This document shows, piece by piece, positions 1,300 through 64,000 of a stretch of DNA of 64,000 bases; positions within the stretch are counted from its first letter, which is position 1, and every line of letters begins with the position of its first letter. Both the position numbers and the translations under genes were made by a program. The notes below the pieces were generated by a model. It was not told where the DNA came from, searched no databases, and worked only from the letters and a program-made list of their open reading frames with translations. The DNA comes from a virus (Duplodnaviria > Heunggongvirae > Uroviricota > Caudoviricetes): the IMG/VR virus record IMGVR_UViG_3300026966_000012; one strand, given 5' to 3'.

Positions 1300-1490
1300 A
1301 CGACGTCGAGTACGCGCTCTCCTGTGTCGAGATCGTGCACGGCTACCGCGATTACGTTCCGGAGGAGGTGCTGATGGGCGAGCCCGAGGTCGAACGGTTC
1401 GACAGTGCAGTGGCGAAGCTCGAACGCGCGATCGAGATGATCGATCCCGACGACCTCGCAGCCTACCACCAGCAGCGGGAGGCCGAGTGA
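1296..1490 (+). CDS. hypothetical protein
   Basis: 64-aa ORF; ATGA overlap. Confidence 0.45.
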   Translation: MNDVEYALSCVEIVHGYRDYVPEEVLMGEPEVERFDSAVAKLERAIEMIDPDDLAAYHQQREAE

Positions 1491-1669
1491 TGGTGGCCCG
1501 GCCGCGGCGCTGGATGGTGGTGACCGACGCCTGGACTGACGCTGAGTCGCCCGTGTTCCGTCGCATCCGGTCGAAGTTGGAGGCGCACAAGCTGGCACAG
1601 TTAACCGTGCGAGCGTACGACGATGGACGCCCGGTCGATGTCGTGGAGGACCTGAGCGATGAGCGGTAA
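1490..1669 (+). CDS. hypothetical protein
   Basis: Internal ATG (index 87) of track ORF 1229..1669, overlapping the previous stop (TGATG). Confidence 0.4.
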   Translation: MVARPRRWMVVTDAWTDAESPVFRRIRSKLEAHKLAQLTVRAYDDGRPVDVVEDLSDER

Positions 1670-1781
1670 CGTGCGCTGGCGGGGCCAGGAGTTCGGCGAC
1701 GGCCAGTTCATCGTCTGGGAGGGTGACCCGAACACGTCGAAGGCGTACGTGGCCGGGACGCCAGTCCCGAACGAGCCCTGA
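1659..1781 (+). CDS. small hypothetical protein (40 aa)
   Basis: Untracked ORF MSGNVRWRGQEFGDGQFIVWEGDP...; ends exactly at the conserved terminator motif GCTGTTCCGCTTTTGCGCC. Confidence 0.3.
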   Translation: MSGNVRWRGQEFGDGQFIVWEGDPNTSKAYVAGTPVPNEP

Positions 1782-1812
1782 GCTGTTCCGCTTTTGCGCC
1801 GCGCCCCGCCGC
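1781..1812 (+). terminator. conserved cassette terminator motif (T-tract in a GC context)
   Basis: CCGCTTTTGCGCCGCGCCCCGCCG; one of at least 13 copies. Confidence 0.45.
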
Positions 1813-1993
1813 TCGCCGACCCTGTCGTGTTTTCCTGTCGCCCCCTCGCGCGGCGTGGTGCGGCAACCCGGTGCCCTTGCGATGTCTCGGGTTTACCAGC
1901 AGTATCAAGTTATTAACATATCTTTATACTCGCTCCTCTCTTAGGTTAGGATAGGCACTGGGGAAACCCGGTGGCCATCTGGAGTGAAATCGA

Positions 1994-3658
1994 ATGGCAA
2001 GCAGTGACAACGACGTGGAGTACAGCACGGGACAGATCGGCGTCGACGAGGAGCGTATCATCGACGAGCTGATCTTCAGCCAGGCGGAGGGCATCGTCGA
2101 CGGCATCCGCGAGCTGGCGCAAAACGGCGTCGACGCACCCGGCTCGACGAAGGTCGAGATCAACGTGACCCCGGAGCGGACGGTCGTGGTCGACGACGGA
2201 GACGGGATGGACCTGAGCGACGAGTCGGTCCGGGAGTTCCTGACGAACCTGGGCCAGTCGACGAAGATCGACGATGAGGAGACGATTGGCCAGTTCGGCA
2301 TCGGCTTCGGTCAGGCGCTGGCGGTCGGGAAAGTGATAGTGCACAGCCAGGACTCGAAGGTCGAGTTCGACGCGAAGAACTGGTTCCGCGACTACCGGCT
2401 GTACGAGGCCGAGGAGCACTTCGACGGCACGAAAGTGACGATCGAGCACTACGAGGACGAGGTGCCCGAGGCGGGCGCGAGTGAGTGGTCCGACCACCTC
2501 GCCGACATCCGCACCCGGTTCCAGTACATGGAGCTGGTCAAGGGCGTTGAGGTGTGGCTGAACGACGAGCAAGTATCCGGATACGACCCGGCTGAGGACG
2601 ATGAGAACGCCACCGTCTACGACTCGGAACTGGCGTACATGGTCCTGAAGCACGAGAGTTACGACTGGATAACGGTGTACTCGGCGGGCCTGAAAGTCAC
2701 GGACGTCCGCGGCCACGGCATCGGGGGCACCGTGATCACGAAGCGCAACCTCGAGCTGAACACGGCGCGGAACAGCATCCGGTCTGGGTGCGAGGTCTGG
2801 CCCGAGGTCGAGGCCGAGATCGAGGAGGCACGTGTCGAGCTCCTGGACGCCGTCTCTGATTCGAAGCTGACGAACAGTGGTCGCGCGGCCGTGGGCCGCC
2901 TGGCCGCCCAGGGACACGAGGGGTTCGAGGACCGCGAAGTGTTCAAGCTGGCGAACGGTGAGATGACCACCCTCGAGACGATCCAGAGCCGAGACAGCAT
3001 CATGTTCGCTGACCAGACGGACAAGGCCGGGGGCAAGCTGGCTGACCACGGGAAGACCGTCCTGATGCGCAGCGATGGCGCGGTTCAGGCGATTCGGGAA
3101 GCGGTGAACCTCGGTCAGCTGAGCATCCCGGAGACGAAAGACGTCCAGGCGTCGGCGGCCGCGATGGGCATCGCGAACGGCTACGAGATCCTCGAGCCCG
3201 AGGAGTTCCACAGCAAGCCCCTGGCGATGGCCCGCATCCTGCGGGAGAAGATGGAGCAGTACAGCCCCTACGCGCTGGACCGGGAGATCGTGGCCGGAGC
3301 GGATAGCGGGGCCAACGCGTGGACGAAGCCGGACCCGTCGACCCTGAACCCGGTGGAGACGGCGGCGATCGCCGACTCTGAGTTCGAGTCGTTCGTCGCG
3401 ATCACGGACACCGCCTACAGCCAGTTGGCGAGCGAGGTCCTCGTGCTCGAGCTGTGGCGCATCCTGGCTCACGAGTTCGCCCACACGGAGGATTCGACGG
3501 GTGAGCCGTCCCACGGGTCGGGCTTCGCGATGCGCTTCCGCAAGATCCTCGACAAGACCCAGCCGGCGGCCGTCGAGCTCCTGAACGAGATTCGCCAGGA
3601 TGGTGTCACGGCAACGTTCGAGCGATACGACCACGGCGTCCCACACGCCCGCGCCTAA
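1994..3658 (+). CDS. GHKL-family ATPase (HATPase_c) with a C-terminal HExxH motif
   Basis: N-box ELAQNGVDA, G1 VDDGDGM, G2 GQFGIGFGQA; C-terminal ILAHEFAH; hairpin and CTGGAGTGAAATCGA leader before the ATG. Confidence 0.7.
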   Translation: MASSDNDVEYSTGQIGVDEERIIDELIFSQAEGIVDGIRELAQNGVDAPGSTKVEINVTPERTVVVDDGDGMDLSDESVREFLTNLGQSTKIDDEETIGQFGIGFGQALAVGKVIVHSQDSKVEFDAKNWFRDYRLYEAEEHFDGTKVTIEHYEDEVPEAGASEWSDHLADIRTRFQYMELVKGVEVWLNDEQVSGYDPAEDDENATVYDSELAYMVLKHESYDWITVYSAGLKVTDVRGHGIGGTVITKRNLELNTARNSIRSGCEVWPEVEAEIEEARVELLDAVSDSKLTNSGRAAVGRLAAQGHEGFEDREVFKLANGEMTTLETIQSRDSIMFADQTDKAGGKLADHGKTVLMRSDGAVQAIREAVNLGQLSIPETKDVQASAAAMGIANGYEILEPEEFHSKPLAMARILREKMEQYSPYALDREIVAGADSGANAWTKPDPSTLNPVETAAIADSEFESFVAITDTAYSQLASEVLVLELWRILAHEFAHTEDSTGEPSHGSGFAMRFRKILDKTQPAAVELLNEIRQDGVTATFERYDHGVPHARA

Positions 3659-4520: not shown

Positions 4521-4841
4521 ATGCCCCGACCGATCGAACGGATGGGTTGTGTTGCCGACCGACTGAGCGACGAGTGGGAGCTCGATGACATCGTGATCGA
4601 GCCGTCGGCGACCGTGACAGCAATCTACCGTCACGTATCCGGGGCGTACGTCATGTGGTCGGCCGACCCGGGACACACGGTACAGTTGTGGGAGGCCGAC
4701 GGATCGGTCGAGACGTGGCTCGATGACGACGAGTTCGCTGACCTGGATTCGGCGACCGAAACTGTCCAGACCTGCGTGGAAGTCATCGAACATGCGACCA
4801 ACCGCGCCCTACCACCAGCAGCGTCGACCCCGCGCCCGTAA
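4521..4841 (+). CDS. hypothetical protein
   Basis: 106-aa ORF, high GC3. Confidence 0.5.
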   Translation: MPRPIERMGCVADRLSDEWELDDIVIEPSATVTAIYRHVSGAYVMWSADPGHTVQLWEADGSVETWLDDDEFADLDSATETVQTCVEVIEHATNRALPPAASTPRP

Positions 4842-5651: not shown

Positions 5652-6059
5652 TCTCGACCCTGCTGCGGTTTGCATCGTTCCTGGTGGTAGTGAGCGGTTC
5701 GATTCCGTGACGATGCCTGGCCCCCGAGCCCTCAGACGATACGTTGATAGGTTCGCGGGGCCTATGCTCACGCGGCATCCGTTAGTGATGCCGTTCCGTT
5801 CGGGTGGGATAGCACGCGTCGGGCTGTCTCGGCAAGGGCAACCACGTCAGTCGAGATCAGAGGCTCGTGCAAACCCGTTGCCCGGGGCATTTGTCCCCGG
5901 GCGCCCTTTGGTACCGCCTCGAGCGAGAGCTCTTGTTCTCTGACATCGCGTATCCGCGCCCGAGCGCGCAAACCCGGTGTGATCATGCTACGATCCTGTT
6001 CTATCAGCAATATTATCTGACAAAGATATTATTATATCAGCTCCAGCCTAAGGTAAAGT

Positions 6060-11138: not shown

Positions 11139-11504
11139 CGCCGACCAGCGCACTACCACCAGCAGCGGCTGGCCTGCGCACCGGTTTTCCGCCGTGCCCC
11201 GTCGCCCACGTGACCCTCGTTTCCGCTCCGCCCGCGACTGTCTCGTGCGATCGTCGCGCCCTGCTTGCGTACGTGTCCCCCCACTGTTACGCTCGTCACG
11301 CCTGCGTTCGCGGCCTGTGCTATCCGCGTCCGACCCCTGTTTCATCTCCGCGTGCCAAGGCGCGGCAACCCGGTGGCGTCCCCGTCAGCAAACGGGCCCT
11401 TTCTGCAAGCAATCCGACACTGAAATCTATAAAACGCTGTCTCAAGCCCTCTACACGAGGATTTAGACCAGAACCTTTATATCAAATCAAGTTCAAGAAG
11501 AAGT

Positions 11505-12017: not shown

Positions 12018-12229
12018 GTTCCGTGCAGCGGCGGTTGTTCGAGGAGTCGGCGGTCGGGGCGGTCTGGGTCGAAGACAGTGACGGGGGTCGCGCGCTGGTG
12101 ACCGTCGAGCGGCACCCGACGGTGTCGATGGGACGTCTGCTCGAGGCGCTCCGGGGACGTGACGACGTCGAGACGGTGCGCCAGACGACAGCGACGCACG
12201 TCGAGGCGATCGTGCGAGGTGACGCCTGA
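12014..12229 (+). CDS. hypothetical protein
   Basis: GTG start overlapping the upstream stop. Confidence 0.4.
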   Translation: MSSVQRRLFEESAVGAVWVEDSDGGRALVTVERHPTVSMGRLLEALRGRDDVETVRQTTATHVEAIVRGDA

Positions 12230-12309
12230 TGCTGGTGGTACTGCTCGTTGCCCTGCTCGTGGTGCTGTTCGGCGTCTGGCTCGTGCTGGCCGCGGCTACC
12301 GCGTTCTAA
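12229..12309 (+). CDS. tiny hydrophobic peptide (26 aa)
   Basis: MLVVLLVALLVVLFGVWLVLAAATAF; ATGA overlap. Confidence 0.3.
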   Translation: MLVVLLVALLVVLFGVWLVLAAATAF

Positions 12310-16120: not shown

Positions 16121-16305
16121 GCCGACCCCGAACCCCGATTCGCCCGACCGGCTGCACTACCACCAGCAGCGACCGGCTCAGCCGACAAAAAACGGGCCCA
16201 CATCACGACGGTTTTCACGCGCGGAATCCAAAACGAACGCCTCAGGGCTCCTACGCGCGGAATGTGACCAGAAACTATATACCTGTCAAAGTACAAGTAT
16301 GTAAT

Positions 16306-16610: not shown

Positions 16611-17133
16611 GTCGTCCAGCCGAACGGTGGGTGTCGTTCCCGTGGGCGCTCGAGCTGACGCCGTGTCGTACGGTGACGCTCTGACCCGTGCAGTCGGTCG
16701 CGTCGTACGGCGGGCCCCCTGAACGGCGCCCCACTAAAGTCAAATTTTAGATATATCCTCGTTTCGACCTACTTTTCAGGGCACACCGCTGTGAGAGGTG
16801 CGTATCGACAATAATCTATCATAACCCCTCCCGAATAGCTCCCCATAACCCTGTCTTCAACGATGTCGCCCGTCCACGTCCCCATTTGTCGGGCACACCG
16901 ATTTTCAGGCACTCGCCTCTGGTGGTAGTGAGTTTCGGTGACATGAACCATATCGATTGACCTGTATGTACCCATATTTCGAATCATAACGAAAATTATA
17001 TATCCGCTTACTGACTATCTTAGAATGTCCCTCCCGTGGAACGGAGTGACGCATTGCATGAAGCGAACGCACGACCGGCCTGGAGACCCGGTCACGTACC
17101 CGAGTAGCACCGCACTCACTACCACCAGGGACG

Positions 17134-18422: not shown

Positions 18423-18673
18423 CGGGCGACGACGGATACGTACCACCAGGAGCGATGCCCCGAAACGCGAATCGGATGAAAGAGGCTGTCAGACAGTGGA
18501 ACGCTGCGGTCGAAGGGCTCCAGGAGCTCGTCGACGATCTCGATGATCTCGACATCCCCGACCGACACGACATGCGGGAAGCTGAGGAGACCATCATGCA
18601 CGACCTTCCGGACGCGGAGCTGTTCCTGCGCGATGCGTGGGATGACCTAACAACGGTATTCGATGATGAGTGA
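18407..18673 (+). CDS. hypothetical protein (start uncertain: GTG at 18407 or 18419)
   Basis: Track ORF; acidic. Confidence 0.45.
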   Translation: MGGPVTGDDGYVPPGAMPRNANRMKEAVRQWNAAVEGLQELVDDLDDLDIPDRHDMREAEETIMHDLPDAELFLRDAWDDLTTVFDDE

Positions 18674-19305: not shown

Positions 19306-19720
19306 ACACGTCGCGACGTACGCACTGGAGCTCAAGCGCGACGTTGGGGGGATGACAGTCTGGTATCAGGTCGAGGCCGAGGGCGATGTCGATCTCGACG
19401 AGGACGAGCTACGTGAGATGGGTGTCGACGCTGTCGAGGCGAACCTCCCTGACGCCCCTGTCGGCGACCTGGTCCTCGCGTTTGCCGAGATGACCGAGCT
19501 GGAGACGTCGGCGTACACGTTCGAGTTCTCTGAGACGGTAAACTACCACGCAGATGGCACCGACTGTCAGGGCCTCGCTGCTGGTGGTAGTCTCGACGAG
19601 GATGGTGAGCTACGTCTCACGGTCTACCGGACGGAGATGGACGGCGTAGACGTGAGCAAACCGACGAAGGTGGACCGGGTGGCCATCGACGACGTGAAGG
19701 CGGTAGTGGACGATGAGTAG
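19298..19720 (+). CDS. hypothetical protein
   Basis: 140 aa. Confidence 0.5.
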   Translation: MSEHVATYALELKRDVGGMTVWYQVEAEGDVDLDEDELREMGVDAVEANLPDAPVGDLVLAFAEMTELETSAYTFEFSETVNYHADGTDCQGLAAGGSLDEDGELRLTVYRTEMDGVDVSKPTKVDRVAIDDVKAVVDDE

Positions 19721-21200: not shown

Positions 21201-21734
21201 ATGCGACAAGATACCACAACGGAAGACGTGAACACACTGGAGCTGACGGTGAACGATGGCCACCCGCTCGACGCGGTCGCTGCGGCGCTTGATGCGCTGG
21301 ACGTGACTGAGGACCGTATCCAGACAGCACAGATCGCAGTCACCTACGAACCCGACCACTCGGTACCACCAGAACCGGCTGTCGAAGATGAGCCAGTGCA
21401 GGACGAGGAAGAAACCGTCGAGCTCGACATCAACGTGGTCGATACCTGCTCCGTTTCGTACGGGAGTCAAGCGCACGCGATCCTCAAACACCTCGAGGAG
21501 ATCACGGACGAGAACGAGTGGGCAACCCCACTTGGGGTCGCAGAGCGACTCGGTGATGAAAGCAAAGCGACGACCGTGAGCGCGCAGATCTCGAAGTACC
21601 ACGATCGTGAGTTGGTAGAGAGAGCGCCACGAGACGACATCCCGCAAACGGCATACAAGTACAAGATCACGCTTCTTGGGCGGGAGGCGTTGCGTCGGTG
21701 CGAGTTCGAGGAGGACCAGAGCATCCCTGCATGA
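21201..21734 (+). CDS. putative winged-helix DNA-binding protein
   Basis: C-terminal region AHAILKHLEEITDENEWATPLGVAERLGDESKATTVSAQISKYHDRELVER resembles ArsR/MarR-type wHTH. Confidence 0.45.
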   Translation: MRQDTTTEDVNTLELTVNDGHPLDAVAAALDALDVTEDRIQTAQIAVTYEPDHSVPPEPAVEDEPVQDEEETVELDINVVDTCSVSYGSQAHAILKHLEEITDENEWATPLGVAERLGDESKATTVSAQISKYHDRELVERAPRDDIPQTAYKYKITLLGREALRRCEFEEDQSIPA

Positions 21735-42099: not shown

Positions 42100-42470
42100 T
42101 GTTCAACCCAGTTTCATGGGTTCGACGGTTGGTGTCGGGGTCTCCAGACCCTGACCCCTCCCCTGTGGAGGCCGACATCGAGCCTCCGGAGACTGTGGCG
42201 CGCGATGTAGCACTCTACCCGGACATCGACGACATGATCGAGTTCGCTGAACGCCGCGGTCGGGTGCTCCGATACGATGATGCAGAGACGGTGGTTGTCA
42301 AGCTCGACGAGACACAGTCGATGACGCCGGTTGCTGTCGAACAGATCGACTGCATCGTTGCTGGTGGTAGTCCGCACCTCCCCGACCATGATGTGTTCGG
42401 GACGGAGACGCCTGACCACCCAGTGTTCGAAGCCGACGAGGACCTTCCGGACCACGAGGTGTTCGCCTGA
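42099..42470 (+). CDS. hypothetical protein
   Basis: 123 aa; PDHEVF repeats. Confidence 0.45.
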   Translation: MFNPVSWVRRLVSGSPDPDPSPVEADIEPPETVARDVALYPDIDDMIEFAERRGRVLRYDDAETVVVKLDETQSMTPVAVEQIDCIVAGGSPHLPDHDVFGTETPDHPVFEADEDLPDHEVFA

Positions 42471-43682: not shown

Positions 43683-43882
43683 TGGCGACCGCTGACGAGA
43701 CGACACAGGAGACCCTCTCACCCATACCACCAGCAGCCCGGTGTGTGAACTACGCCGACTGTGGCAACGAGACGCCTGGTGGCGAGGATGCTGGGAACAT
43801 GATGTGCGATGCGTGTCTCGACGCTGCACGTGCTGGTGGGACAGGACACGACCTGGCGACGCCCGACGAAGACGACGCATAG
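43682..43882 (+). CDS. zinc-binding protein
   Basis: CVNYADCG...CDAC. Confidence 0.45.
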   Translation: MATADETTQETLSPIPPAARCVNYADCGNETPGGEDAGNMMCDACLDAARAGGTGHDLATPDEDDA

Positions 43883-47245: not shown

Positions 47246-50236
47246 ATGAGCCAACCAGACAGTAGTGTGCGCCTCCCGAAGAAGCAAACAACGGGAGCCA
47301 CGCTCGAAGACCGACTGACAGAGAACGCGTACCAGCGGATTATTCCACAGCGATACCTCAAGAAGGACGAGAACGGTGTGCCAACGGAGGAGCCAGAAGA
47401 CCTGTTCGAACGCGTGGCGAAGAACATCGCCATCGCTGAGGCGATCCACACGGACGAGACGGTGTGGATAGAACCCAGGCACATCAAGCCCGACCACCCG
47501 CGACGCGAGGACCTGATCCGCGAGGTATTCGACGACTACGGCATCGCTGATGCCGAGGGCATGGAGCCGACCACGGAACTGGACGAGGAGAACGCCAAGT
47601 GGGTCTCCTACGATACAATCATCGACGACCTCGACACTACCACCAGAAGCGTCGTCGAGGACACGAAAGAGCGGTTCCAGGATCGTATGGAGCGTCTGGA
47701 TTTCATCCCGAACAGCCCCACCCTCGCCAACGCCGGCGACGAGCTCCAGCAACTCAGCGCATGTTTCGTGATGTCCCCGGAAGACGACATCGCTGACATC
47801 CACGACACGCTTCGTGATGCTGCGCTGACGTTCCAGTCGGGAGGCGGCGTTGGGTATGCGTTCAGCTACCTTCGACCCTACGGTGACCGTGTCGGCTCGA
47901 CTGGTGGTATCGCATCGGGCCCGCTCACGTTCATGCGGACCTACGACCAGATGTGCCGGACGATCGCCCAGGGCGGGATGCGCCGCGGCGCGCAGATGGG
48001 TGTGATGCGAGTCACGCACCCTGACGTGATCTTCTTCATCCACTCGAAGAACAAGGACGTCTCACTCGCGCAGGCCCTCCGTCTGAACGACCCGAAGGAC
48101 TACGTAAACTCGTCGTACGGGGAAGCCCTCGAAGAAGCCCGCGACACACTCGAGCGGTTCACTGACGACGAAGGACGTCTCGAACCACACCTCCGAAACG
48201 CTGTCGAGGCACAGCTCGCCAACTTCAACATCAGCGTGACGGTCACCGACGACTTCATGCTGGCCGTGGAGAACGACGAGCTCCACACGTTCATCAACCC
48301 GCGCACTGGACAGCCCCACATCGCGACCGAGGAGACCAAAGAGATGTACGAGTGGTTCGACCTGGGTCACCACGTCACTGTGGGAGAGCCACTACGTGTC
48401 CCGGCTCGCGAGATCTGGGATGACATCATCGAAGGTGCGCACGAGAACGGCGAACCAGGGGTGCTGTTCATCGACAGTGCGAACGCGGACCACTCGTTCC
48501 CGACGGAATCGACGCCGACATGGCGCGACGACGATCAGTTCGAGATGTCGACGACCAACCCCTGTGGCGAGCAATGGCTCATGGAGAACGAGGCGTGCAA
48601 TCTGGGCCACATAAACCTCTCGACGCTTGTGGCCGAGGATGCACCCGACTGGCGAACGTACCTCGACACATACGGCGCCCCGAGTGGGTACGAACCCGAC
48701 CGGTCTGAGATGGCATACGTCGTTGGTGATTTCCTCGAGAAAGCCATCGACTGGGAGGAGCTCGACGCCCGCGTCGACGACGGCGTTCGGTTCCTCGACA
48801 ACGTCGTCACCATGTCGTCATTCCCCACCCCGGAGATCGAACAGACAGTACGGGATAACAGGAAGATAGGACTCGGGATCATGGGACTGGCCCAGATGTT
48901 CGTGCAGATCGGGACCAAGTACGGGAGCGATGTCTCGAACGAAGTGACCAGACAGGTGATGCGCCACATCAACCAGCGGTCGAAAGACGCATCGCTACGT
49001 CTGGCTGACCAGCGTGGGTCGTTCGAAAACTGGGAGCACTCGAAGTACGCCGACCCGACCGCCCACACAGACTGGTTCGAGCGCCAGACTGGAGAGGCGG
49101 CCGACGTCTGGGAAGATGGCTACCCGATACGGAACCACAACACGACCACAGTGGCGCCGACTGGGACAACTGGAATGATCGGAAACACGAGCGGTGGATG
49201 TGAACCGATCTTCGGTGTTGCACACTTCAAAAACGTCTCTCAGGACATCCAGGGAGACGAGCAGCTCGTTGAGTTCGACGACTATTTCCTCCGTGTCCTG
49301 GAGGCTAACGACGTCGACGTCGAAGCGGCGAAGACAGAGTGTCTCGAGCAGATGCAAGCCAACGAGTTCGAGGGTGTGAAGGGGCTCGAAACGGTCCCGG
49401 ACGAGATCGGCGAGCTATTCGTCACCACGGACATGCTCAGTGGCCTCGAGCACGCGTCTGTCCAGTGTGCCGCCCAGGAGGGCGTGGACAGTGCGATCAG
49501 CAAGACCGTCAACTTCCCCAACAGCGCGACCAAACAGGACGTGCAGGAAGTGTACGCGTACCTGTGGAGCCACGGAGCCAAGGGAGGAACGATCTACCGC
49601 GATGGGTCCCGTTCGAAGCAAGTGATCTCAACCAGAGCTGATCACGGAGACGTGGCCGGCGGAGAGCCCATGTCGCGAGAGGACGCTGAGGCTCGAATCG
49701 ACGAGCTCGCAGAGGAACACGGTATCCCACTGGCCGCCGCTGAGCAACCCGCTACTGGTGGTATCGAGCTGGCTGAGCCGGGCAAGGTTCTGTCTGCTCG
49801 ACGCGAGCGCATCAAGACGGGATACGGGAACATGTACGTCAACATCGGGTTCGACGACGAGGGTCGCCCCATCGAGACGATCTGCAACATCGGGAAGTCG
49901 GGCGGGTTCACCAACTCGATGGTCGAGGCCATCGGCAAACTGTCGTCGCTGGCACTCCAGGCTGGCGTTCCAGCCGAGGAAGTAGTCGAGAAACTCGACG
50001 GCATCTCCTCGCCGGACATCGGGTTCGACGATGGTGAGCAGATAGCCTCACTCCCGGACGGTATCGCCACCGCACTTCGTCGTGCGGTCGAGGCCGAGAG
50101 TGAAGCGACACTCGAGATCAAAGCCCACAACGATCACAACCCGAACGAGGAGTCCTGTCCGGACTGTGGCGGCGACGTCGTTTACGACGGTGGGTGCCCG
50201 AAGTGCGCCCTCGAGTGTGGTTGGTCGAAGTGCTGA
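47246..50236 (+). CDS. nrdJ: class II (adenosylcobalamin-dependent) ribonucleotide reductase
   Basis: 996 aa; active-site TTNPCGEQ; C-terminal zinc ribbon CPDCGG...CPKCALECGWSKC. Confidence 0.85.
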   Translation: MSQPDSSVRLPKKQTTGATLEDRLTENAYQRIIPQRYLKKDENGVPTEEPEDLFERVAKNIAIAEAIHTDETVWIEPRHIKPDHPRREDLIREVFDDYGIADAEGMEPTTELDEENAKWVSYDTIIDDLDTTTRSVVEDTKERFQDRMERLDFIPNSPTLANAGDELQQLSACFVMSPEDDIADIHDTLRDAALTFQSGGGVGYAFSYLRPYGDRVGSTGGIASGPLTFMRTYDQMCRTIAQGGMRRGAQMGVMRVTHPDVIFFIHSKNKDVSLAQALRLNDPKDYVNSSYGEALEEARDTLERFTDDEGRLEPHLRNAVEAQLANFNISVTVTDDFMLAVENDELHTFINPRTGQPHIATEETKEMYEWFDLGHHVTVGEPLRVPAREIWDDIIEGAHENGEPGVLFIDSANADHSFPTESTPTWRDDDQFEMSTTNPCGEQWLMENEACNLGHINLSTLVAEDAPDWRTYLDTYGAPSGYEPDRSEMAYVVGDFLEKAIDWEELDARVDDGVRFLDNVVTMSSFPTPEIEQTVRDNRKIGLGIMGLAQMFVQIGTKYGSDVSNEVTRQVMRHINQRSKDASLRLADQRGSFENWEHSKYADPTAHTDWFERQTGEAADVWEDGYPIRNHNTTTVAPTGTTGMIGNTSGGCEPIFGVAHFKNVSQDIQGDEQLVEFDDYFLRVLEANDVDVEAAKTECLEQMQANEFEGVKGLETVPDEIGELFVTTDMLSGLEHASVQCAAQEGVDSAISKTVNFPNSATKQDVQEVYAYLWSHGAKGGTIYRDGSRSKQVISTRADHGDVAGGEPMSREDAEARIDELAEEHGIPLAAAEQPATGGIELAEPGKVLSARRERIKTGYGNMYVNIGFDDEGRPIETICNIGKSGGFTNSMVEAIGKLSSLALQAGVPAEEVVEKLDGISSPDIGFDDGEQIASLPDGIATALRRAVEAESEATLEIKAHNDHNPNEESCPDCGGDVVYDGGCPKCALECGWSKC

Positions 50237-51831: not shown

Positions 51832-52431
51832 TTAGAGCAGGTTGTCGACGACAGTTAGTGTTCGGGTGGTGAGTTCGTCGAGCCCACGATTGTTTTGTAC
51901 GACGGCGTCTGCACGCTGGAAGTAGTCCCTGACCCCCGCATCGTGCTCGCGATCGGTCCGTTCGCGCAAATATCGAGCACTGTCGATGGGGTCCTCGCCC
52001 CCTTTCCCCCTACCCTCACGGGTTGCAAACCACCTAACACGGTCGCCGAAGGTCGCGTCGACCCACACAACGTGTGCCTCAATGTCTAACTCGGCCGCGA
52101 GGTAGTCAACTTCGGCGGGATTCCGGGTCCCTTCCAGGACAACGACATCGGACTCGTCGAGATGCTCGCGGATGGGGCCGGTGCAGGGAACGGCCACTCC
52201 ATACTCACCATGCTCCTCTCTGAGAGCTTCGGCGTAGGCCCACACTTCATCCTCGTCGCTCGACTCCATGGCTTCTCTGAGCGTCTCACCCATGCTCACG
52301 ACTGGAAACCCCTGTTCTCCCAGGAGTTGAGCGGCTGTGCTTTTCCCACTTGCCGGATATCCCGCGAGTGCTATGATAGTCATCATGATATGTAATATAT
52401 CCCGAAACAAGAACATTGCGCTCACTACCAC
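51832..52431 (-). CDS. P-loop nucleotide kinase (adenylate/dNMP kinase-like); only minus-strand gene
   Basis: Walker A AGYPASGKST; start probably at MMTII (52386). Confidence 0.6.
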   Translation of the reverse strand: MVVSAMFLFRDILHIMMTIIALAGYPASGKSTAAQLLGEQGFPVVSMGETLREAMESSDEDEVWAYAEALREEHGEYGVAVPCTGPIREHLDESDVVVLEGTRNPAEVDYLAAELDIEAHVVWVDATFGDRVRWFATREGRGKGGEDPIDSARYLRERTDREHDAGVRDYFQRADAVVQNNRGLDELTTRTLTVVDNLL

Positions 52432-52522
52432 CAGAAGCGTTTGATTGTGCCCCGTCTATCCGGGTGAGGTGACCCGAGTATAACAAATATATTCTCGATT
52501 GTATCTGTTCAAAGAGTAGTTA

Positions 52523-52539
52523 CGAAAACTGGTATATAT
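52523..52539 (+). promoter_or_regulatory. late promoter motif CGAAAACTGGTATATAT
   Basis: TATA about 28 nt before the ATG at 52563. Confidence 0.5.
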
Positions 52540-56361: not shown

Positions 56362-56393
56362 CCGCTCACTACCACCAGCAACGGGATTAACAC

Positions 56394-57431: not shown

Positions 57432-57830
57432 ATGGTCGTTGAAGCCCGCGACGTGAGAACGGCGCTGAACGAGATCGACGAAGATGCCATCTCGAACGGG
57501 GTTATCACCCAGAAGATCGGACAAGCGAAGGTGATCGTCACTGACCGTGGTGTCAAAGAGTCTGACGATCAGTACGAGTACGCAGTGATCCAGACGGCCG
57601 CGTTCCTGGCGTTCATGGCCAGCCCACCGATGGAGCAAAAGCGTGCCCTCGATGCCGAGGCGCACTGGAACGTCAAGGACTACATCGAGAACCTCAAGTG
57701 GCAAATGAATCTCGCCCTGGAATCCGCTGGCGGCGCTTCTGGTGGTAGGTCGGCTGCGTTCGTCGACAACACAGATGGTGTCTACGACGACGTTACGAGC
57801 GACACTGACGACACGCAGTTTTCGCGATGA
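57432..57830 (+). CDS. hypothetical structural protein
   Basis: 132 aa. Confidence 0.45.
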   Translation: MVVEARDVRTALNEIDEDAISNGVITQKIGQAKVIVTDRGVKESDDQYEYAVIQTAAFLAFMASPPMEQKRALDAEAHWNVKDYIENLKWQMNLALESAGGASGGRSAAFVDNTDGVYDDVTSDTDDTQFSR

Positions 57831-61976: not shown

Positions 61977-62352
61977 GGGGCTGGGCACAGTCCCCTGCTG
62001 GCCAGATCACGGTCAGCATCGCCCTGAGATTCAACAAAGAGATCGAAGAAGTCGATGCATGGCCCTGGCGCCGCCGATTCGCTTACGCCCTGGCGATCGG
62101 CGCAGTCGAAAACCAGGAGAACGCACAGTCCGAGCTCCCGAATGTAAATACAAGCCAACTCCCCGCTGGCGCGAACGTGAATACGCACATGCCCTCCGGC
62201 AAAGAAGTCCACCCATCCGTCGCGAAGCACGACCACGTATTCCACGTCGAGAACGGCAACTGACCGCTCACTACCACCAGGAGCGTCTGTGGCATACACT
62301 TATTACCGCATACTGTCAATATCTATATATGGAACTAACTGAAAGAAGCACC

Positions 62353-62778
62353 ATGGGACTGACTGAAGAAACCGCGGCTGACTGGATCGGGCGATCGAAA
62401 GAGGAGATGCCCGATGACCTTACCAGTATGTTCGACGCGTTTGACTCACCGTGCCCAGAGTGTAACGAGAACATGGTCGCGTTCGCGCCAGAAGGTATCG
62501 ATAGCGAGTGTGTCTGCTTTGGCTGTGGGGCTGAGCTCCGCTCACACGACGTCGACAATATGTTCGAGGTGGCCAAAGAGAAAGTCGACAACCACATCGA
62601 GACTCGGGGAGAAAGAAAGGAAGCGATGTCGAAGGGTGAGTACAAGCGCGAGGGTAACAAGAACCTCGCGAAGATGCTCGGGATCATCGGTATACTGTTC
62701 TGTCTCACGATCATCGGCATCCCGATAGGTGCTGTCCTGATATACCTCGCCGCTCGCATCGCTCCTGACGAGGAGTGA
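62353..62778 (+). CDS. zinc-ribbon membrane protein
   Basis: CPECN...CFGCG and a C-terminal TM; TATA atctatatat about 25 nt upstream. Confidence 0.45.
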   Translation: MGLTEETAADWIGRSKEEMPDDLTSMFDAFDSPCPECNENMVAFAPEGIDSECVCFGCGAELRSHDVDNMFEVAKEKVDNHIETRGERKEAMSKGEYKREGNKNLAKMLGIIGILFCLTIIGIPIGAVLIYLAARIAPDEE

Positions 62779-62795
62779 CCTGATCTATTTCTGAC

Positions 62796-62814
62796 CCGAA
62801 AACTGGTATATAGG
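62796..62814 (+). promoter_or_regulatory. late promoter motif CCCGAAAACTGGTATATAG
   Basis: Fourth copy, upstream of the TMP. Confidence 0.45.
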
Positions 62815-62921
62815 CCAAATCGTCTTCGTTACAGTAGCAGGCGGTAGTCGTACCGCCGGCGCCGGCCATGAGAGTATCCGCGTCAGTCCCCCAAGAGCGT
62901 CTGTTCGAGGTGGTCGAATAG

Positions 62922-64000
62922 ATGGTTTTCCAGCAGATAAGACATCTTTTTATAACTCTCGACGCCACTGACAAGGCTACCAGAAAGCTCAAGCAGGTAG
63001 ACCGGACTGCGGATAACCTCACGAGGACACAGCGTGAGGCGGCTGAAGCGACACGGAAGTATCGACAGCGGCTCGTGGCGGCTGGGTTCGGTGCAGCGAT
63101 TCTCACCGGCGCACTCGCCCGCATGGTCCAGATGACCGCCGAGGTCGACCGCACGTTCGCCCGCATTGAGGGGACGAGTGGGGCGACGGCCGAGGAGATG
63201 GCACGTATCCGTGAGGAAGCAGAGCGGATCGGTGCGGAGATGCCTGTCCTCATGTCTGACGCTGCTCAATCGTTCGAACAGCTCAGCTATGCCGGCTTTA
63301 GTGTCGAAGAACAGATAGCGGCCGCGAGTGCTGTGACCGAGCTCGCCATCGCGGGTAACATGGAAATGGCCCAGTCGGCTCGTATCGCCTCGTCGGCCGT
63401 GAGAGCCTTCAGCCTCGAAGCCACCGAGGTGGAACAGATCACAGAGTCGATGGCGGCGACGTTTACGAACAGCGCCTTCGAGATGGCCGAGATGGCGCAG
63501 TCGCTCGAGTACGCAATGTCCACAGCGTCGCAGGCGAACCAGTCGTTTACTGAAGTCGTCGCGGCCCTGGGTGTTCTCGCCGACATCGGCCTCCGTGGGA
63601 CGAAAGCAGGGACGGCCCTGGAACGCATGTTCACCCGGCTCGCCAAGCAGAACGGCGAGACAGCGGACGCGATGCAGACGCTCGGGCTCACGATGGACGA
63701 CCTCGTCGACTCACAGGGCGATTTCCTCGACCTGAGTGCGATCGTCCAGATCATCAGCCAGAACATCGAGGAACTCGGCGTGGGTGGTGCCGAGACGCTT
63801 CGTATCCTCCAGGAGCTATTCGGCGCTCGTGGTGGTAGGGCTGCGGCGGCGCTCGTGAACAACACGGACAAGTTCCTCACGAAGATCGGCGACAACGCCC
63901 GTGCAGAGATCCACGCCACGATGGCCACGCTGAACGAACTGAATGAGGAAGAACTCGCCCAAACGAACGAGGTGCTGAACATGATGGTCGAGAACTTCGA
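62922..64000 (+). CDS. tail tape measure protein (3'-truncated at the window end)
   Basis: Untracked because no stop in the window; N-terminal TP901-like TMP domain ...MAQSARIASSAVRAFSLEATE...; Ala-rich and helical. Confidence 0.75.
   Translation, partial: MVFQQIRHLFITLDATDKATRKLKQVDRTADNLTRTQREAAEATRKYRQRLVAAGFGAAILTGALARMVQMTAEVDRTFARIEGTSGATAEEMARIREEAERIGAEMPVLMSDAAQSFEQLSYAGFSVEEQIAAASAVTELAIAGNMEMAQSARIASSAVRAFSLEATEVEQITESMAATFTNSAFEMAEMAQSLEYAMSTASQANQSFTEVVAALGVLADIGLRGTKAGTALERMFTRLAKQNGETADAMQTLGLTMDDLVDSQGDFLDLSAIVQIISQNIEELGVGGAETLRILQELFGARGGRAAAALVNNTDKFLTKIGDNARAEIHATMATLNELNEEELAQTNEVLNMMVENF

What the first reader, a model, noticed from the sequence alone, without database searches (positions are those of the whole stretch)
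1461..63840. Highly over-represented dispersed 17-20 bp motif GCTCACTACCACCAGMAGCG (core TACCACCAG / CTGGTGGTA), about 28 copies on both strands, inside and between genes
Forward copies are near 1470, 4806, 11152, 16148, 17111, 18441, 24121, 27676, 31323, 36885, 38048, 40386, 43724, 47638, 52423, 56361 and 62266. Reverse copies are near 5681, 16918, 19575, 22015, 30281, 40762, 42361, 47898, 49752 and 57738, with a variant at 63826. A 9-mer is expected less than once in 64 kb, and the flanks (CAC before, MAGCG after) are also conserved. Copies inside genes are read in different frames (YHQQ, TTTR, TGG, LPPEA...). So the DNA sequence itself is being maintained, not a peptide. Nine or so copies sit immediately 3' of stop codons. 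The reverse orientation contains GCTGGTGG, identical to the E. coli Chi octamer. This is probably coincidental because archaea lack RecBCD, but it fits a recombination or repair hot-spot-like role. Other possibilities are a recognition site for a virus- or host-encoded DNA-binding or modification enzyme (two TGT/DpdA-like genes are present), a packaging or condensation signal, or a self-versus-non-self tag.
Basis: seen in the sequence. Interest (0 to 1): 0.85.

Follow-up and report, generated by a model that had tools for sequence, protein, structure and literature searches.

The report
Lineage-specific dispersed binding-site motif, archaeal virus
A 17-base asymmetric DNA word is kept about once every 2 kb, in genes and between them, in a new ~150-kb virus/plasmid family of salt-loving archaea, and each related virus carries its own version at the same positions; this points to a co-evolving, sequence-specific DNA-binding factor, most likely a genome-wide transcription regulator.

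Summary
TACCACCAG occurs 30 times (18 +, 12 -) against 0.3-1 expected. The full element is about 17 bp and asymmetric: (ct)CAC-TACCACCAG-N-AGCG. Codon usage does not explain it: a synonymous-codon shuffle expects 1.9 genic copies against 17 observed, and shuffling expects 0.05 intergenic copies against 13 observed.

The window is part of a novel haloarchaeal myovirus. Its closest complete relative is a 148.9-kb circular "plasmid" of Halobaculum halophilum.

Each relative carries its own variant at orthologous positions:
- relB: cGA-TGCCACCAG-NAGCG
- Halobaculum element: aTGCCACCA[C/G]-NRRCG, 52 copies
- TGCCAACAG in another lineage
- TGACAGCAG in another lineage

Inside genes, amino acids change to fit the local variant. 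Other replicons of the Halobaculum strain lack the motif, and no sequenced genome is enriched for it. It is therefore a property of the element, not of the host.

Half the sites are intergenic. These mostly point the same way as transcription (30:10). Many start 1-16 nt after a stop codon or lie just upstream of promoter-like boxes.

Best reading (about 0.45): operator-like, "stoperator-like" sites for an element-encoded DNA-binding regulator whose specificity co-evolves with the sites. The binding protein is not identified. Rivals are a target for a DpdA-type modifier or an HNH nickase, partition or condensation sites, and a host factor. A Chi-like recombination role is not supported.

The parts
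1461..1477 (+). motif copy GCCTACCACCAGCAGCG
   Evidence: Exact 9-mer. Lies 18 nt before the stop of the 64-aa ORF 1296-1490. Flanks 5/7.
4807..4823 (+). motif copy CCCTACCACCAGCAGCG
   Evidence: Lies 23 nt before the stop of ORF 4521-4841. Flanks 6/7. The Halobaculum element has CATGCCACCACAGGCG at the aligned position.
5676..5692 (-). motif copy CACTACCACCAGGAACG
   Evidence: Intergenic, 29 nt after a stop. Flanks 6/7. Lies inside a tRNA-like hairpin region.
11151..11167 (+). motif copy, perfect 17-mer
   Evidence: Intergenic, 15 nt after the stop of 10761-11138. Flanks 7/7.
12227..12243 (-). weak motif copy CAGTACCACCAGCATCA
   Evidence: 2 nt after the stop of 12014-12229. Flanks 4/7.
16155..16171 (+). 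motif copy, perfect 17-mer
   Evidence: Intergenic by the public gene calls on L116, which place genes at window 15790-16029 and 16306-16542. Flanks 7/7.
16914..16930 (-). motif copy CACTACCACCAGAGGCG
   Evidence: In the 590-bp intergenic region, upstream of AT-rich TATA-like boxes. relB has GGATGCCACCAGAGGCG at the orthologous position.
17117..17133 (+). motif copy CACTACCACCAGGGACG
   Evidence: 5 nt before the start of gene 17134. Forms an inverted pair with 16914-16930, 200 bp apart. relB ortholog is GGATGCCACCAGGAACG.
18438..18454 (+). motif copy ACGTACCACCAGGAGCG
   Evidence: 18 nt after the stop at 18422. Flanks 4/7.
19576..19592 (-). motif copy GACTACCACCAGCAGCG
   Evidence: Genic, read as Gly-Gly. 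Flanks 6/7. The relB ortholog is degenerate, GGTGCCACCAACAGCG.
21361..21377 (+). doubtful copy CGGTACCACCAGAACCG
   Evidence: Genic. Flanks 4/7. Absent at the aligned relB position.
22013..22029 (-). motif copy, perfect 17-mer
   Evidence: 5 nt after a stop and 13 nt upstream of the AT-rich box GATATTAAATATTC. Orthologs carry the local variant in relB and in the Halobaculum element.
24122..24138 (+). motif copy, perfect 17-mer, between the TerS-like gene and the large terminase gene
   Evidence: 4 nt after the stop of 23446-24120 and 59 nt before TerL. Orthologs are TGCCACCAG in relB and TGCCACCAC in the Halobaculum element.
27677..27693 (+). motif copy, perfect 17-mer
   Evidence: Genic, 119 nt before the stop of the 577-aa gene. 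Flanks 7/7.
29048..29064 (-). motif copy (weak flanks)
   Evidence: Genic, read as Gly-Gly. relB ortholog is GTGATGCCACCAGCAGCGG.
30276..30292 (-). motif copy CACTACCACCAGCACCG
   Evidence: Inside the hexapeptide-transferase gene. relB ortholog is TCGATGCCACCAGCAGCG, and the peptide changes from GGSEM to GGIDV.
31328..31344 (+). motif copy TCGTACCACCAGGAACG
   Evidence: Intergenic, about 25 nt upstream of the AT-rich box AAGATATACA. relB ortholog is TCGATGCCACCAGCAGCG.
36883..36899 (+). motif copy ACCTACCACCAGCAACG
   Evidence: 8 nt after the stop of the 320-aa gene. Orthologs in relB and in the Halobaculum element both read TGCCACCAGCAAC.
38048..38064 (+). probable coding coincidence (TGGTACCACCAGCACGA)
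   Evidence: Flanks 1/7. Identical in relB as W-Y-H-Q codons.
40385..40401 (+). motif copy CAATACCACCAGCAACG inside the DpdA-like gene
   Evidence: relB ortholog is TCGATGCCACCAGCAGCG.
40759..40775 (-). motif copy CCATACCACCAGTAGCG inside the DpdA-like gene
   Evidence: relB and the Halobaculum element both have GATGCCACCAGT at this position.
42356..42372 (-). motif copy GACTACCACCAGCAACG
   Evidence: Genic. The relB ortholog is degenerate, CTTCCACCAG.
43722..43738 (+). motif copy CCATACCACCAGCAGCC
   Evidence: 42 nt after a stop. The relB ortholog is degenerate, ATTCCACCAGAAGCG.
47635..47651 (+). motif copy, perfect 17-mer, inside the ribonucleotide reductase gene
   Evidence: relB has GGATGCCACCAGGAACG and the Halobaculum element has GGATGCCACCACAAAG. 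The encoded peptide reads DTTTRS, PDATRN and PDATTK respectively.
47896..47912 (-). weak copy in the conserved RNR peptide GSTGGIASGP
   Evidence: Flanks 3/7. A motif-less relative (L145) still has TACCACCGG here, so this copy is largely coding-driven.
49750..49766 (-). motif copy CGATACCACCAGTAGCG inside RNR
   Evidence: relB ortholog is CGATGCCACCAGCAGCG. Absent in the Halobaculum element.
52423..52439 (+). motif copy, perfect 20-mer GCTCACTACCACCAGAAGCG
   Evidence: Intergenic, 89 nt upstream of the promoter-like GAAAACTGGTATATA. relB keeps the window-type word here, next to a 98.7%-identical gene.
56367..56383 (+). motif copy CACTACCACCAGCAACG
   Evidence: Fills a 32-nt spacer: 8 nt after a stop and 15 nt before the next start. 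The Halobaculum ortholog is TGCCACCAC.
57734..57750 (-). motif copy ACCTACCACCAGAAGCG
   Evidence: Genic, read as Gly-Gly. The Halobaculum ortholog is GGTGCCACCAGTCGCG.
62269..62285 (+). motif copy, perfect 17-mer
   Evidence: 8 nt after a TGA. An AT-rich box lies about 45 nt downstream. The Halobaculum element has a site 7 nt after the stop of the syntenic small gene.
63824..63840 (-). variant copy CCCTACCACCACGAGCG (G to C at core position 9)
   Evidence: Same position-9 change as the main Halobaculum variant.
34210..34668 (+). candidate binding protein only (weak): 152-aa protein with two predicted helix-turn-helix-like bundles
   Evidence: The start of the second recognition helix (WP[IV]xxxTV[R/E]xW) is hypervariable among 8 otherwise conserved homologs. 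The AlphaFold model shows two 3-helix bundles at pLDDT 69. Against: homologs also occur in relatives where no motif was found, and the fold search was not significant.
52524..52538 (+). promoter-like box GAAAACTGGTATATA, associated with upstream motif copies
   Evidence: 5 copies in the window plus its extension and 12 in the Halobaculum element, all on +. 7 of the 12 have a motif copy 23-92 nt upstream.

Best explanation
The motif is a cis-acting recognition site about 17 bp long and asymmetric, (ct)CAC-TACCACCAG-N-AGCG. Selection on the DNA itself keeps it about once per 2 kb throughout a novel ~150-kb haloarchaeal myovirus/plasmid-prophage genome.

Most likely it is bound by one element-encoded, sequence-specific DNA-binding protein that acts on transcription. 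Copies next to TATA-like boxes would act as operators or upstream sites. Copies placed a few bases after stop codons, mostly co-oriented with transcription, would act as boundary or roadblock sites, working like the 'stoperators' of Cluster A mycobacteriophages. Copies inside genes would be tolerated wherever the coding sequence allows (Gly-Gly, Leu-Pro-Pro, Thr-Thr).

The specificity of the protein and the sites co-evolve, so each related element has its own word. This would give each lineage a private regulatory or immunity specificity.

Shown: over-representation, DNA-level selection, element specificity, concerted lineage-specific change at orthologous sites, and positional and orientation biases.

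Inferred: protein binding, an effect on transcription, and the identity of the protein.
For: 1. Enrichment far beyond composition and codon usage.

2. The element is asymmetric and long. The extra flank information is 8.5 bits in the window and 5-12 bits in the relatives.

3. Variants at orthologous positions.
- Of 19 alignable window sites, 12 carry the relB word (TA to TG, flank CAC to GA) at the same position. Four are near-variants, one is absent and two are identical.
- The complete Halobaculum halophilum element has 52 copies of TGCCACCA[C/G].
- Two further lineages use TGCCAACAG and TGACAGCAG.
- Amino acids change to fit the local word.

4. Not a host signature.
- There is 1 copy or fewer in 100 kb of two other replicons of the same Halobaculum strain, against 37 in the element.
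- A scan of 185,579 species genomes for the 19-mer gave 12 single chance hits, none in a haloarchaeon.

5. Link to transcription.
- All genes are on +.
- About half the sites are intergenic although my + strand gene calls leave only about 19% of the window uncalled.
- Intergenic sites are 30:10 co-oriented with transcription, binomial p = 0.002. This pools the window and the Halobaculum element, which share orthologous sites.
- 17 of 37 intergenic sites start within 16 nt of the upstream stop, and their position in the spacer is skewed towards the stop (KS p = 7e-4).
- 7 of 12 promoter-like GAAAACTGGTATATA boxes in the Halobaculum element have a site 23-92 nt upstream. The chance rate is about 3% per box.
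- Intergenic sites in - orientation lie 9-15 nt upstream of AT-rich boxes.

6. Precedent. L5-type repressors bind as monomers, through two DNA-binding domains, to more than 20 asymmetric 13-bp sites in promoters and short intergenic spaces. The motifs differ between related phages in step with the repressor (PMC9283540, PMC6550527).

7. A close relative persists as a circular 148.9-kb replicon with a ParA gene in a cultured strain. That is a lifestyle in which genome-wide silencing is needed.
Against: - No binding protein is identified.
- The HTH_10/BAT regulator (45013-45669) has an almost invariant recognition helix across lineages with different words.
- The tandem-HTH candidate (34210-34668) also occurs in relatives where I found no motif (L145/146, L150), and its fold search was not significant.
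- Overall orientation is only 18:12. Genic sites are about 1:1, including conserved co-oriented sites deep inside RNR. True stoperators are almost all in one orientation and intergenic.
- Temperate or plasmid-prophage biology is inferred from one relative only. No repressor/immunity module lies in the window.
- All functional claims rest on sequence statistics.
Confidence: 0.45

Rival explanations
1. The motif is the address of an element-encoded enzyme that acts on DNA rather than a regulator. One option is a DpdA-family transglycosylase that inserts a 7-deazaguanine at the site, giving an epigenetic or self mark. The other is an HNH endonuclease that makes site-specific single-strand nicks, as in T5-, phiKMV- and tf-type phages and the GCCCA-associated discontinuities of haloarchaeal pleolipoviruses.
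For: - The window encodes a DpdA-family protein (Pfam PF23859, 71.6 bits) and an HNH endonuclease (7608-8120).
- The only site mapped for bacterial DpdA/B lies in CAG/CTG, with CxGCxG as a partial motif (PMC10164549). The window word contains CAG-N-AG-CG and reads CAGCAGCG in half of the copies.
- The one relative with enough sequence that lacks the motif (L145) also lacks DpdA-like genes between the tandem-HTH gene and RNR.
- Enzyme and site would co-evolve just as a regulator and its sites would.
- From my own knowledge, not a tool result: nick-associated consensus sequences in phages are long and asymmetric.
Against: - Known phage DpdA motifs are 2-3 nt (GA, GGC; abstracts of PMC10484667 and PMC7544227), not 17 nt.
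- A self mark gives no reason for positional conservation, for placement after stop codons or upstream of promoter boxes, or for an orientation bias relative to transcription.
- The G of CAG is replaced by C in most Halobaculum copies.
- The L145 correlation is a single case on a partial contig.
Confidence: 0.2
2. The sites serve genome maintenance. They would load a ParB/KorB-like, SMC-like or virion-condensing protein that needs entry points spread along the whole replicon, for partition, compaction or packaging.
For: - Sites cover the whole 148.9-kb Halobaculum element.
- Spacing is somewhat more even than random: CV 0.72 in both genomes, p = 0.04 and 0.008.
- Function in both orientations fits a structural role.
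- The Halobaculum element encodes ParA and a ParB-N-terminal-domain protein, and a site lies on each side of that gene (26456+, 28128-).
- From my own knowledge: KorB of IncP plasmids binds about a dozen dispersed sites and also regulates transcription.
Against: - From my own knowledge: known parS/OB sites are palindromic and few or clustered. This word is asymmetric and occurs at roughly 50-70 copies per genome (52 counted in the Halobaculum element; about 70 extrapolated for the window virus).
- A purely structural role does not explain the bias for stop-codon-proximal, co-oriented intergenic positions or the association with promoter boxes.
- No ParB-like gene lies in the window.
Confidence: 0.12
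3. The sites bind a host protein, for example a host transcription factor, a TFB/TBP variant or a nucleoid protein. The motif variants would track different host species rather than a viral protein.
For: - The motif differs between elements that probably have different hosts. Only the Halobaculum host is known.
- The positional link to promoters is equally compatible with a hijacked host factor.
- No viral binding protein could be pinned down.
Against: - No host-side enrichment: 100 kb of host replicons have 1 copy or fewer, and no genome in the species collection carries multiple copies.
- Two elements about 82% identical in aligned DNA (relB and the window) differ cleanly in the word. That is easier to explain by a private viral factor.
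- relB keeps one window-type site inside a recently exchanged segment. This suggests that both types circulate in the same gene pool.
Confidence: 0.1
4. Chi-like recombination or repair hot spot, or a DNA-uptake-type tag.
For: - The reverse complement contains GCTGGTGG in the 15 copies where N is C.
- The Halobaculum element encodes PD-(D/E)XK and ERCC4 nucleases and a helicase.
Against: - Identity and homology breakpoints are not enriched at sites. The mean change in identity across a site is 0.116, against 0.246 at motif-less gene ends and 0.126 at random positions versus relB; the result versus the Halobaculum element is similar.
- Sites show no polarity along the genome.
- There is no host-genome over-representation.
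- The Pfam survey of the window proteins listed no RecBCD/AddAB family.
- The word changes between close relatives.
Confidence: 0.05
5. Artefact of codon, amino-acid or oligonucleotide usage, or a small mobile repeat (MITE/REP-like).
For: A few copies do sit in conserved peptides: 47901 in GSTGGIASGP and 38051 in WYHQ.
Against: - The synonymous-codon shuffle expects 1.9 genic copies against 17 observed, and shuffling expects 0.05 intergenic copies against 13 observed.
- No inverted-repeat structure was seen in the aligned flanks, and the flanks of orthologous sites remain aligned.
- Sites lie at orthologous positions in relatives with the word swapped, so they were not inserted.
Confidence: 0.02

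Closest known systems
Operator/stoperator sites of the Cluster A mycobacteriophage immunity repressor (L5 gp71, Bxb1, TipsytheTRex)
   Same: Both have many (more than 20) copies of a short asymmetric word dispersed over the whole phage genome. Both lie in promoters and in short intergenic spaces near stop codons. Both show an orientation bias relative to transcription. In both, related phages carry similar but distinct words (PMC9283540, PMC6550527).
   Different: - This word is 17 bp rather than 13 bp.
- About half of the copies lie inside genes.
- Orientation is only about 3:1 for intergenic copies and 1:1 for genic copies.
- The host is an archaeon with a TBP/TFB/RNAP machinery.
- No homolog of the repressor is known here and binding is untested.
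- The element is a ~150-kb myovirus-like replicon, not a 50-kb siphovirus.
Dispersed asymmetric C1 operators of phage P1, and KorB OB sites of IncP plasmids (global regulators of plasmid-borne elements)
   Same: In both, a plasmid-type replicon carries more than ten operator copies scattered around the genome, which coordinate silencing. This comparison is from my own knowledge and was not tested here.
   Different: - KorB sites are palindromic.
- P1 has about 15-20 operators, nearly all at promoters.
- No homolog of C1 or KorB was found in the window.
DpdA/Dpd 7-deazaguanine DNA modification sites
   Same: A DpdA-family gene is present in the window. The only mapped bacterial site lies in CAG/CTG with partial motif CxGCxG (PMC10164549), which resembles the CAG-N-AG-CG half of the word.
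   Different: - Known DpdA motifs are 2-6 nt and are not positionally conserved.
- Here the conserved word is 17 nt, and the CAG G is not conserved in the Halobaculum variant.
Intergenic repeats of halovirus HF2 that carry promoters
   Same: Both are repeated intergenic elements in a haloarchaeal myovirus that are linked to transcription (PMC8707807 abstract).
   Different: - HF2 repeats are 29 and 58 bp, contain the AT-rich promoter itself, and are intergenic.
- The present word is GC-rich, 17 bp, lies next to rather than within promoter-like boxes, and also occurs inside genes.
E. coli Chi (GCTGGTGG)
   Same: The octamer is contained in the reverse complement of the 15 copies where N is C.
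   Different: - There is no host-wide enrichment, no polarity and no association with recombination breakpoints.
- The Pfam survey listed no RecBCD family.
- The specificity-determining bases lie outside the octamer and change between close relatives.

Membership tests
Cluster A mycobacteriophage-type operator/stoperator network | Many (more than 20) copies of one short asymmetric word dispersed over the whole genome | tested here: met
   30 copies in 64 kb and 52 in the complete 148.9-kb relative. The word is not palindromic.
Cluster A mycobacteriophage-type operator/stoperator network | Sites lie in promoters and in short intergenic spaces | tested here: inconclusive
   About half the sites are intergenic, against about 19% of the window left uncalled by my gene calls. 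17 of 37 intergenic sites start within 16 nt of a stop. Sites are associated with promoter-like boxes. The other half lie inside genes, including conserved sites in RNR and DpdA.
Cluster A mycobacteriophage-type operator/stoperator network | Sites predominantly in one orientation relative to transcription | tested here: inconclusive
   Intergenic sites are 30:10 co-oriented (p = 0.002). Genic sites are about 1:1, and the window overall is 18:12.
Cluster A mycobacteriophage-type operator/stoperator network | Word differs between related phages in step with the cognate repressor | tested here: inconclusive
   Lineage-specific words at orthologous sites are shown. No cognate protein is identified, so co-variation with a protein could not be tested properly.
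Cluster A mycobacteriophage-type operator/stoperator network | Bound by a monomeric two-domain (HTH plus stoperator domain) immunity repressor that blocks initiation and elongation | not testable with these tools
   This needs binding and transcription assays. The window covers only about 40% of the genome. A Pfam survey of 104 window proteins listed only HTH_10 and HTH_23-like domains among its 25 reported families.
Chi sites | Over-represented in the host chromosome and recognised by the host RecBCD/AddAB | tested here: not met
   Host replicons carry 1 copy or fewer per 50 kb. No genome is enriched. The Pfam survey listed no RecBCD/AddAB family.
Chi sites | Orientation polarity along the replicon, and association with recombination | tested here: not met
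   The two strands are interleaved along both genomes. There is no excess of homology breakpoints at sites.
DNA uptake sequences (DUS/USS) | Genome-wide over-representation in the recipient species | tested here: not met
DpdA (7-deazaguanine) modification motif | A guanine in the motif is replaced by a 7-deazaguanine derivative | not testable with these tools
   This needs LC-MS or long-read kinetics. Only the presence of a DpdA-family gene and a partial resemblance to CxGCxG are shown.
REP/MITE-type mobile short repeats | Palindromic or TIR-bounded, extragenic, inserted copies | tested here: not met
   The word is asymmetric and half of the copies are genic. Orthologous positions are kept while the word is swapped, and the flanks remain aligned.
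Phage-specific RNA-polymerase promoters (T7 type) | Intergenic, single orientation, with a cognate viral RNAP gene | tested here: not met
   12 of 30 copies are antisense to all genes and about half are genic. The Pfam and PHROGs surveys listed no RNAP family.
Origin iterons / ORB elements, parS centromeres | Clustered at an origin or partition locus; parS is palindromic | tested here: not met
   Sites are spread over the whole genome, with spacing slightly more even than random. The word is asymmetric.

The most novel reading that the evidence does not exclude
An archaeal virus/plasmid family runs a genome-wide, privately addressed DNA-marking system. A 17-bp address, rewritten in concert in each lineage, would direct either a roadblock-type transcription insulator/terminator protein or site-specific insertion of a 7-deazaguanine base by a DpdA-type enzyme as a regulatory epigenetic mark. 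The first would be a factor-dependent, sequence-specific way of ending or silencing archaeal transcription that has not been described. Either would be a mechanism not known in archaea or their viruses.
Probability: 0.15. Interest if true: 0.9.

Novelty: new variant of a known kind. Interest (0 to 1): 0.68.

Why it matters
Dispersed, co-evolving operator networks are known from a few bacteriophage and plasmid systems. My searches found none described for archaeal viruses, and I know of none. How large archaeal viruses silence, time or insulate about 200 co-directional genes is essentially unknown.

This family offers a clean natural experiment. Five lineages have five words at the same positions, and one lineage is carried by a cultured strain (Halobaculum halophilum Gai3-2). 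The binding factor, its specificity code and its effect on archaeal transcription are therefore directly testable.

If the sites turn out instead to be addresses for DpdA-type modification or for nicking, that would be new for those systems too.

The motif is also a practical marker. It can assign metagenomic contigs to a lineage and can reveal recent recombination between lineages, such as the window-type site retained in relB.

Tried and rejected
1. A scan of IMG/VR for the 17-mer gave 115 single hits. Loci with several copies of the 9-mer were low-GC phages with Gly-rich proteins, so they are chance hits.

2. There is no nucleotide match in INPHARED. No halovirus in INPHARED carries a homolog of the tandem-HTH protein. 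The only phage DpdA homologs are distant, mostly in mycobacteriophages.

3. The first 50 kb of HGTV-1, the nearest large haloarchaeal myovirus, has no comparable GC-rich dispersed word.

4. tRNA or Rfam origin of the word: ARAGORN and Rfam found nothing. The tRNA-like hairpins near two copies are not thermodynamically unusual.

5. Host-genome signature: rejected. The first genome-contig scan with TerL found nothing.

6. Recombination junctions: rejected.

7. Candidate proteins.
- The HTH_10/BAT regulator diverges fast (52% and 35% identity) but only outside its recognition helix.
- The TerS-like protein is conserved in its N-terminal region.
- The tandem-HTH protein has a hypervariable recognition-helix start. 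However, it is also found in the motif-less contigs L145/146 and L150, and its model has no significant structural neighbour.

8. The largest site-free gap in the Halobaculum element covers the ParA/HTH minus-strand module, but it is not longer than chance allows.

9. The more distant relatives L128, L145/146 and L150 show no recognisable variant. The system is therefore confined to a sub-clade, or has diverged beyond recognition.

Full report
**1. The observation**

TACCACCAG or its complement occurs 30 times in the 64-kb window, 18 on + and 12 on -. Dinucleotide shuffles expect 0.26 and an order-4 Markov model expects 0.96.

Aligning the copies shows a longer asymmetric element, (c)(t)C-A-C-TACCACCAG-N-A-G-C-G. 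C/A/C at -3..-1 is present in 21/17/19 of 30 copies. A, G, C, G at +2..+5 is present in 27/19/28/26 of 30. The 17-mer with up to 3 mismatches occurs 29 times against 0.51 expected.

Three copies were missed (12232-, 21364+, 29053-). The variant at 63824-63840 is real.

**2. Not codon usage**

All genes in this region are on the + strand. This follows from the public gene calls on an identical contig (L116) and from the annotated relative.

I called + strand genes by GC3 periodicity and shuffled synonymous codons across them, keeping every protein sequence and the global codon usage. The expected genic count is 1.9 (maximum 5 in 300 shuffles) against 17 observed. For the - orientation alone it is 0.09 against 8. 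In 12.4 kb of intergenic DNA the expectation is 0.05 against 13 observed.

Copies in + orientation are read in all three frames. All eight genic - copies are read as x-GGT-GGT-A, that is Gly-Gly. That is the frame with the least coding cost. The DNA word is what is maintained.

**3. What the window is**

It encodes a large terminase, a portal-like protein, a tail sheath, an RNR, ThyX, a DpdA-family protein and an HNH endonuclease. It has no nucleotide match among 50,697 phage records.

Identical or near-identical metagenome contigs exist (L116, L117, L007).

The closest complete relative (terminase 83% identical at the amino-acid level) is 'plasmid unnamed3' of Halobaculum halophilum Gai3-2, NZ_CP058532.1. 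It is 148,857 bp and circular. It is syntenic with the window over its positions 76-137 kb. It carries tail, baseplate, DNA polymerase, helicase and ParA genes.

The window therefore belongs to a novel ~150-kb haloarchaeal myovirus-like element that can persist as a plasmid. HGTV-1 is only distantly related (25% terminase identity).

**4. The key finding: each relative has its own word at the same places**

| Lineage | Word | Copies |
|---|---|---|
| Window | (ct)CAC-TACCACCAG-N-AGCG | 30 in 64 kb |
| relB (IMG/VR contig 3300027007_000012; about 82% nt identity in aligned DNA; 41.5 kb assembled from L118, L127, L132) | ctcGA-TGCCACCAG-cAgCG | 16 |
| Halobaculum element | a-TGCCACCA[C/G]-N-R-R-C-G | 52 (37 + 15) |
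| L120/L148/L149 | caA-TGCCAACAG-nAaCG | 10 distinct |
| L121 | gc-TGACAGCAG-g | 7 |

relB has only one window-type copy.

Site-by-site alignment covers 19 window sites that can be aligned to relB:
- 12 carry the relB word at exactly the orthologous position (TA to TG, flank CAC to GA).
- 4 carry one-base variants of it.
- 1 is absent.
- 2 are identical. One is a probable coding coincidence (38051). The other lies beside a 98.7%-identical gene, which suggests a recently exchanged segment (52426).

Inside genes the protein gives way to the word:
- At 47638 in RNR the peptide reads DTTTRS (window), PDATRN (relB) and PDATTK (Halobaculum).
- At 30281 in the hexapeptide transferase, GGSEM becomes GGIDV.

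The positions that never vary across the five words are T1, C4-A5 and C7-A8 of the 9-mer core.

More distant relatives (L128, L145/146, L150) show no recognisable word. The first 50 kb of HGTV-1 shows none either.

**5. A property of the element, not the host**

100 kb from two other replicons of the same Halobaculum strain contain 1 and 0 copies of TGCCACCAC, against 37 in the element. A scan of one genome for each of 185,579 bacterial and archaeal species for CTCACTACCACCAGNAGCG returned 12 single hits, all bacterial, as chance predicts. This excludes Chi-, DUS- or KOPS-type host signatures.

**6. Where the sites sit**

- About half are intergenic (13-15 of 30 in the window, 25 of 52 in the Halobaculum element). 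My + strand gene calls leave only about 19% of the sequence uncalled.
- Intergenic copies are mostly co-oriented with transcription: 11:4 and 19:6, pooled p = 0.002. The two genomes share orthologous sites, so the counts are not independent. Genic copies are about 1:1.
- 17 of 37 intergenic copies start within 16 nt of the preceding stop codon. Their position in the spacer is skewed towards the stop (KS p = 7e-4). In several tight junctions the word essentially is the spacer, as at 56367-56383.
- A + strand promoter-like box, GAAAACTGGTATATA (BRE/TATA-like), occurs 5 times in the window plus its extension and 12 times in the Halobaculum element. Seven of those 12 have a motif copy 23-92 nt upstream, where about 3% is expected.
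- Intergenic copies in - orientation lie 9-15 nt upstream of other AT-rich boxes, for example 22013-22029 and its orthologs.
- Spacing along both genomes is slightly more even than random (CV 0.72; p = 0.04 and 0.008).
- Homology and identity breakpoints between genomes are not concentrated at sites.

**7. Interpretation**

A long asymmetric word is held by selection at fixed positions. It is changed in concert between close relatives, is private to the element, and is biased towards gene ends, promoters and the direction of transcription. This is what is expected of the binding sites of one element-encoded, sequence-specific DNA-binding protein that acts on transcription.

The closest described system is the operator/stoperator network of Cluster A mycobacteriophages. 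There, a monomeric repressor with two DNA-binding domains recognises more than 20 asymmetric 13-bp sites in promoters and short intergenic spaces. It blocks both initiation and elongation in an orientation-dependent way. Related phages carry different words that track repressor divergence (PMC9283540, PMC6550527).

I therefore propose that the motif works like a stoperator/operator network, and I put this at about 0.45. I do not file it as a member of that family:
- the orientation rule is only partly met;
- half the sites are genic;
- the host machinery is archaeal;
- no repressor is identified.

**8. The reader of the motif is not identified**

- The HTH_10/BAT regulator (45013-45669) is the most divergent full-length ortholog in its neighbourhood (52% to relB, 35% to the Halobaculum element). 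Its recognition helix is nearly invariant.
- A 152-aa protein (34210-34668) is predicted to form two three-helix bundles (pLDDT 69). Across eight homologs it is conserved except at the first residues of the second putative recognition helix (WP[IV]xxxTV[R/E]xW). That pattern is attractive for an asymmetric bipartite site. However, homologs occur on contigs without a detectable motif, and Foldseek finds no significant neighbour.
- The window covers only about 40% of the genome. The region that in the Halobaculum element holds minus-strand HTH, ParA and ParB-domain genes lies outside it.

**9. Rivals**

(a) *Enzyme address.* A DpdA-family gene and an HNH endonuclease are present. The only mapped bacterial DpdA/B site lies in CAG/CTG with partial motif CxGCxG (PMC10164549), which resembles the CAG-N-AG-CG half. 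One motif-less relative also lacks the DpdA genes between the tandem-HTH gene and RNR. Against this, known phage DpdA motifs are 2-3 nt, and a mark does not explain the positional pattern. About 0.2.

(b) *Partition, condensation or packaging entry sites.* About 0.12.

(c) *Host-factor site.* About 0.1.

(d) *Chi-like recombination signal.* About 0.05, and not supported.

(e) *Compositional artefact or mobile repeat.* Refuted.

**10. Novelty and value**

My literature searches found no description of a dispersed, lineage-specific, co-evolving word of this kind in an archaeal virus. The nearest hits were HF2 intergenic promoter repeats and a paper on haloarchaeal pleolipovirus genome types (PMC3384331). 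From my own knowledge, that pleolipovirus work describes GCCCA-associated strand discontinuities.

I rate the finding a new variant of a known kind, with interest 0.68. One member of the family is carried by a cultured strain, so binding, transcript-end mapping and modification or nick mapping can decide between the explanations.

Noticed in passing
window 36900-36945 and 5662-5726; Halobaculum element (L124) about 12280-12320; L148 about 6615-6650; L150 about 5985-6020: tRNA-like T-arm plus acceptor mini-helices (GGCGGTTCAACTCCGCC, GGTTCGATTCC) follow the 320-aa gene in four lineages. One (5662-5726) has a motif copy embedded in it. ARAGORN and Rfam call nothing, and the folding energy is not unusual. 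They could be tRNA-gene remnants, att-like cores or 3'-end structures.
   Followed up: partly
window 4471, 52524, 59515, 62798; L007 about 7251; 12 copies in the Halobaculum element: A strongly conserved promoter-like box GAAAACTGGTATATA (BRE/TATA-like) occurs on the + strand only. It probably defines one temporal class of viral promoters.
   Followed up: partly
window 24140-24175, 31030-31060, 16090-16115; Halobaculum element: Alternating purine-pyrimidine elements (GTACGTACATAC, ACGTACGTAC) recur in intergenic regions. ACGTACGTAC occurs 25 times in the Halobaculum element. They could be a second promoter class or Z-DNA-prone elements.
   Followed up: no
window 11170-11400, 12310-12345, 16055-16085, 16575-16600: GC-rich intergenic repeats (GCGCGGCAACCCGGTG and CCGNTTTTCCGCCGTGCCCCG) lie next to small genes that start with the same codons (ATGGAATCAAAAATT at 11505 and 16306). 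This looks like a family of small paralogous early-type cassettes.
   Followed up: no
window 34671-35411: A window-specific 246-aa paralog of the adjacent tandem-HTH gene (29% identity, weak HTH_23 hit). It is absent from relB and from the Halobaculum element.
   Followed up: partly
relB (L118 about 8470-10000; relB 34774-37273); proteins P0004, P0006: In relatives the terminase and RNR genes are interrupted by inteins (Intein_splicing plus LAGLIDADG). The window copies are uninterrupted.
   Followed up: no
window 44860-45950: A low-GC island holds an HTH_10/BAT-type regulator (45013-45669), flanked by AT-rich non-coding DNA. Its sensory N-terminal part diverges much faster than neighbouring genes, while its recognition helix is conserved.
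   Followed up: partly
window 38695-42099: The DpdA-family gene (39647-40915) has an N-terminal zinc-ribbon-like segment. It is flanked by two conserved genes of similar size with no family assignment (38695-39696 and 41047-42099). No preQ0 synthesis genes were listed by the family surveys of the window.
   Followed up: partly
NZ_CP058532.1 (L122-L124): The record annotated as a 148.9-kb 'plasmid' of Halobaculum halophilum Gai3-2 is a complete myovirus-like genome. It carries terminase, portal, sheath, tape measure, baseplate, DNA polymerase and ParA genes, and a probable tRNA gene block. The tRNA block is inferred from locus-tag gaps at about 52.7-59 kb and from one tRNA-like sequence at about 58.6 kb.
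   Followed up: partly
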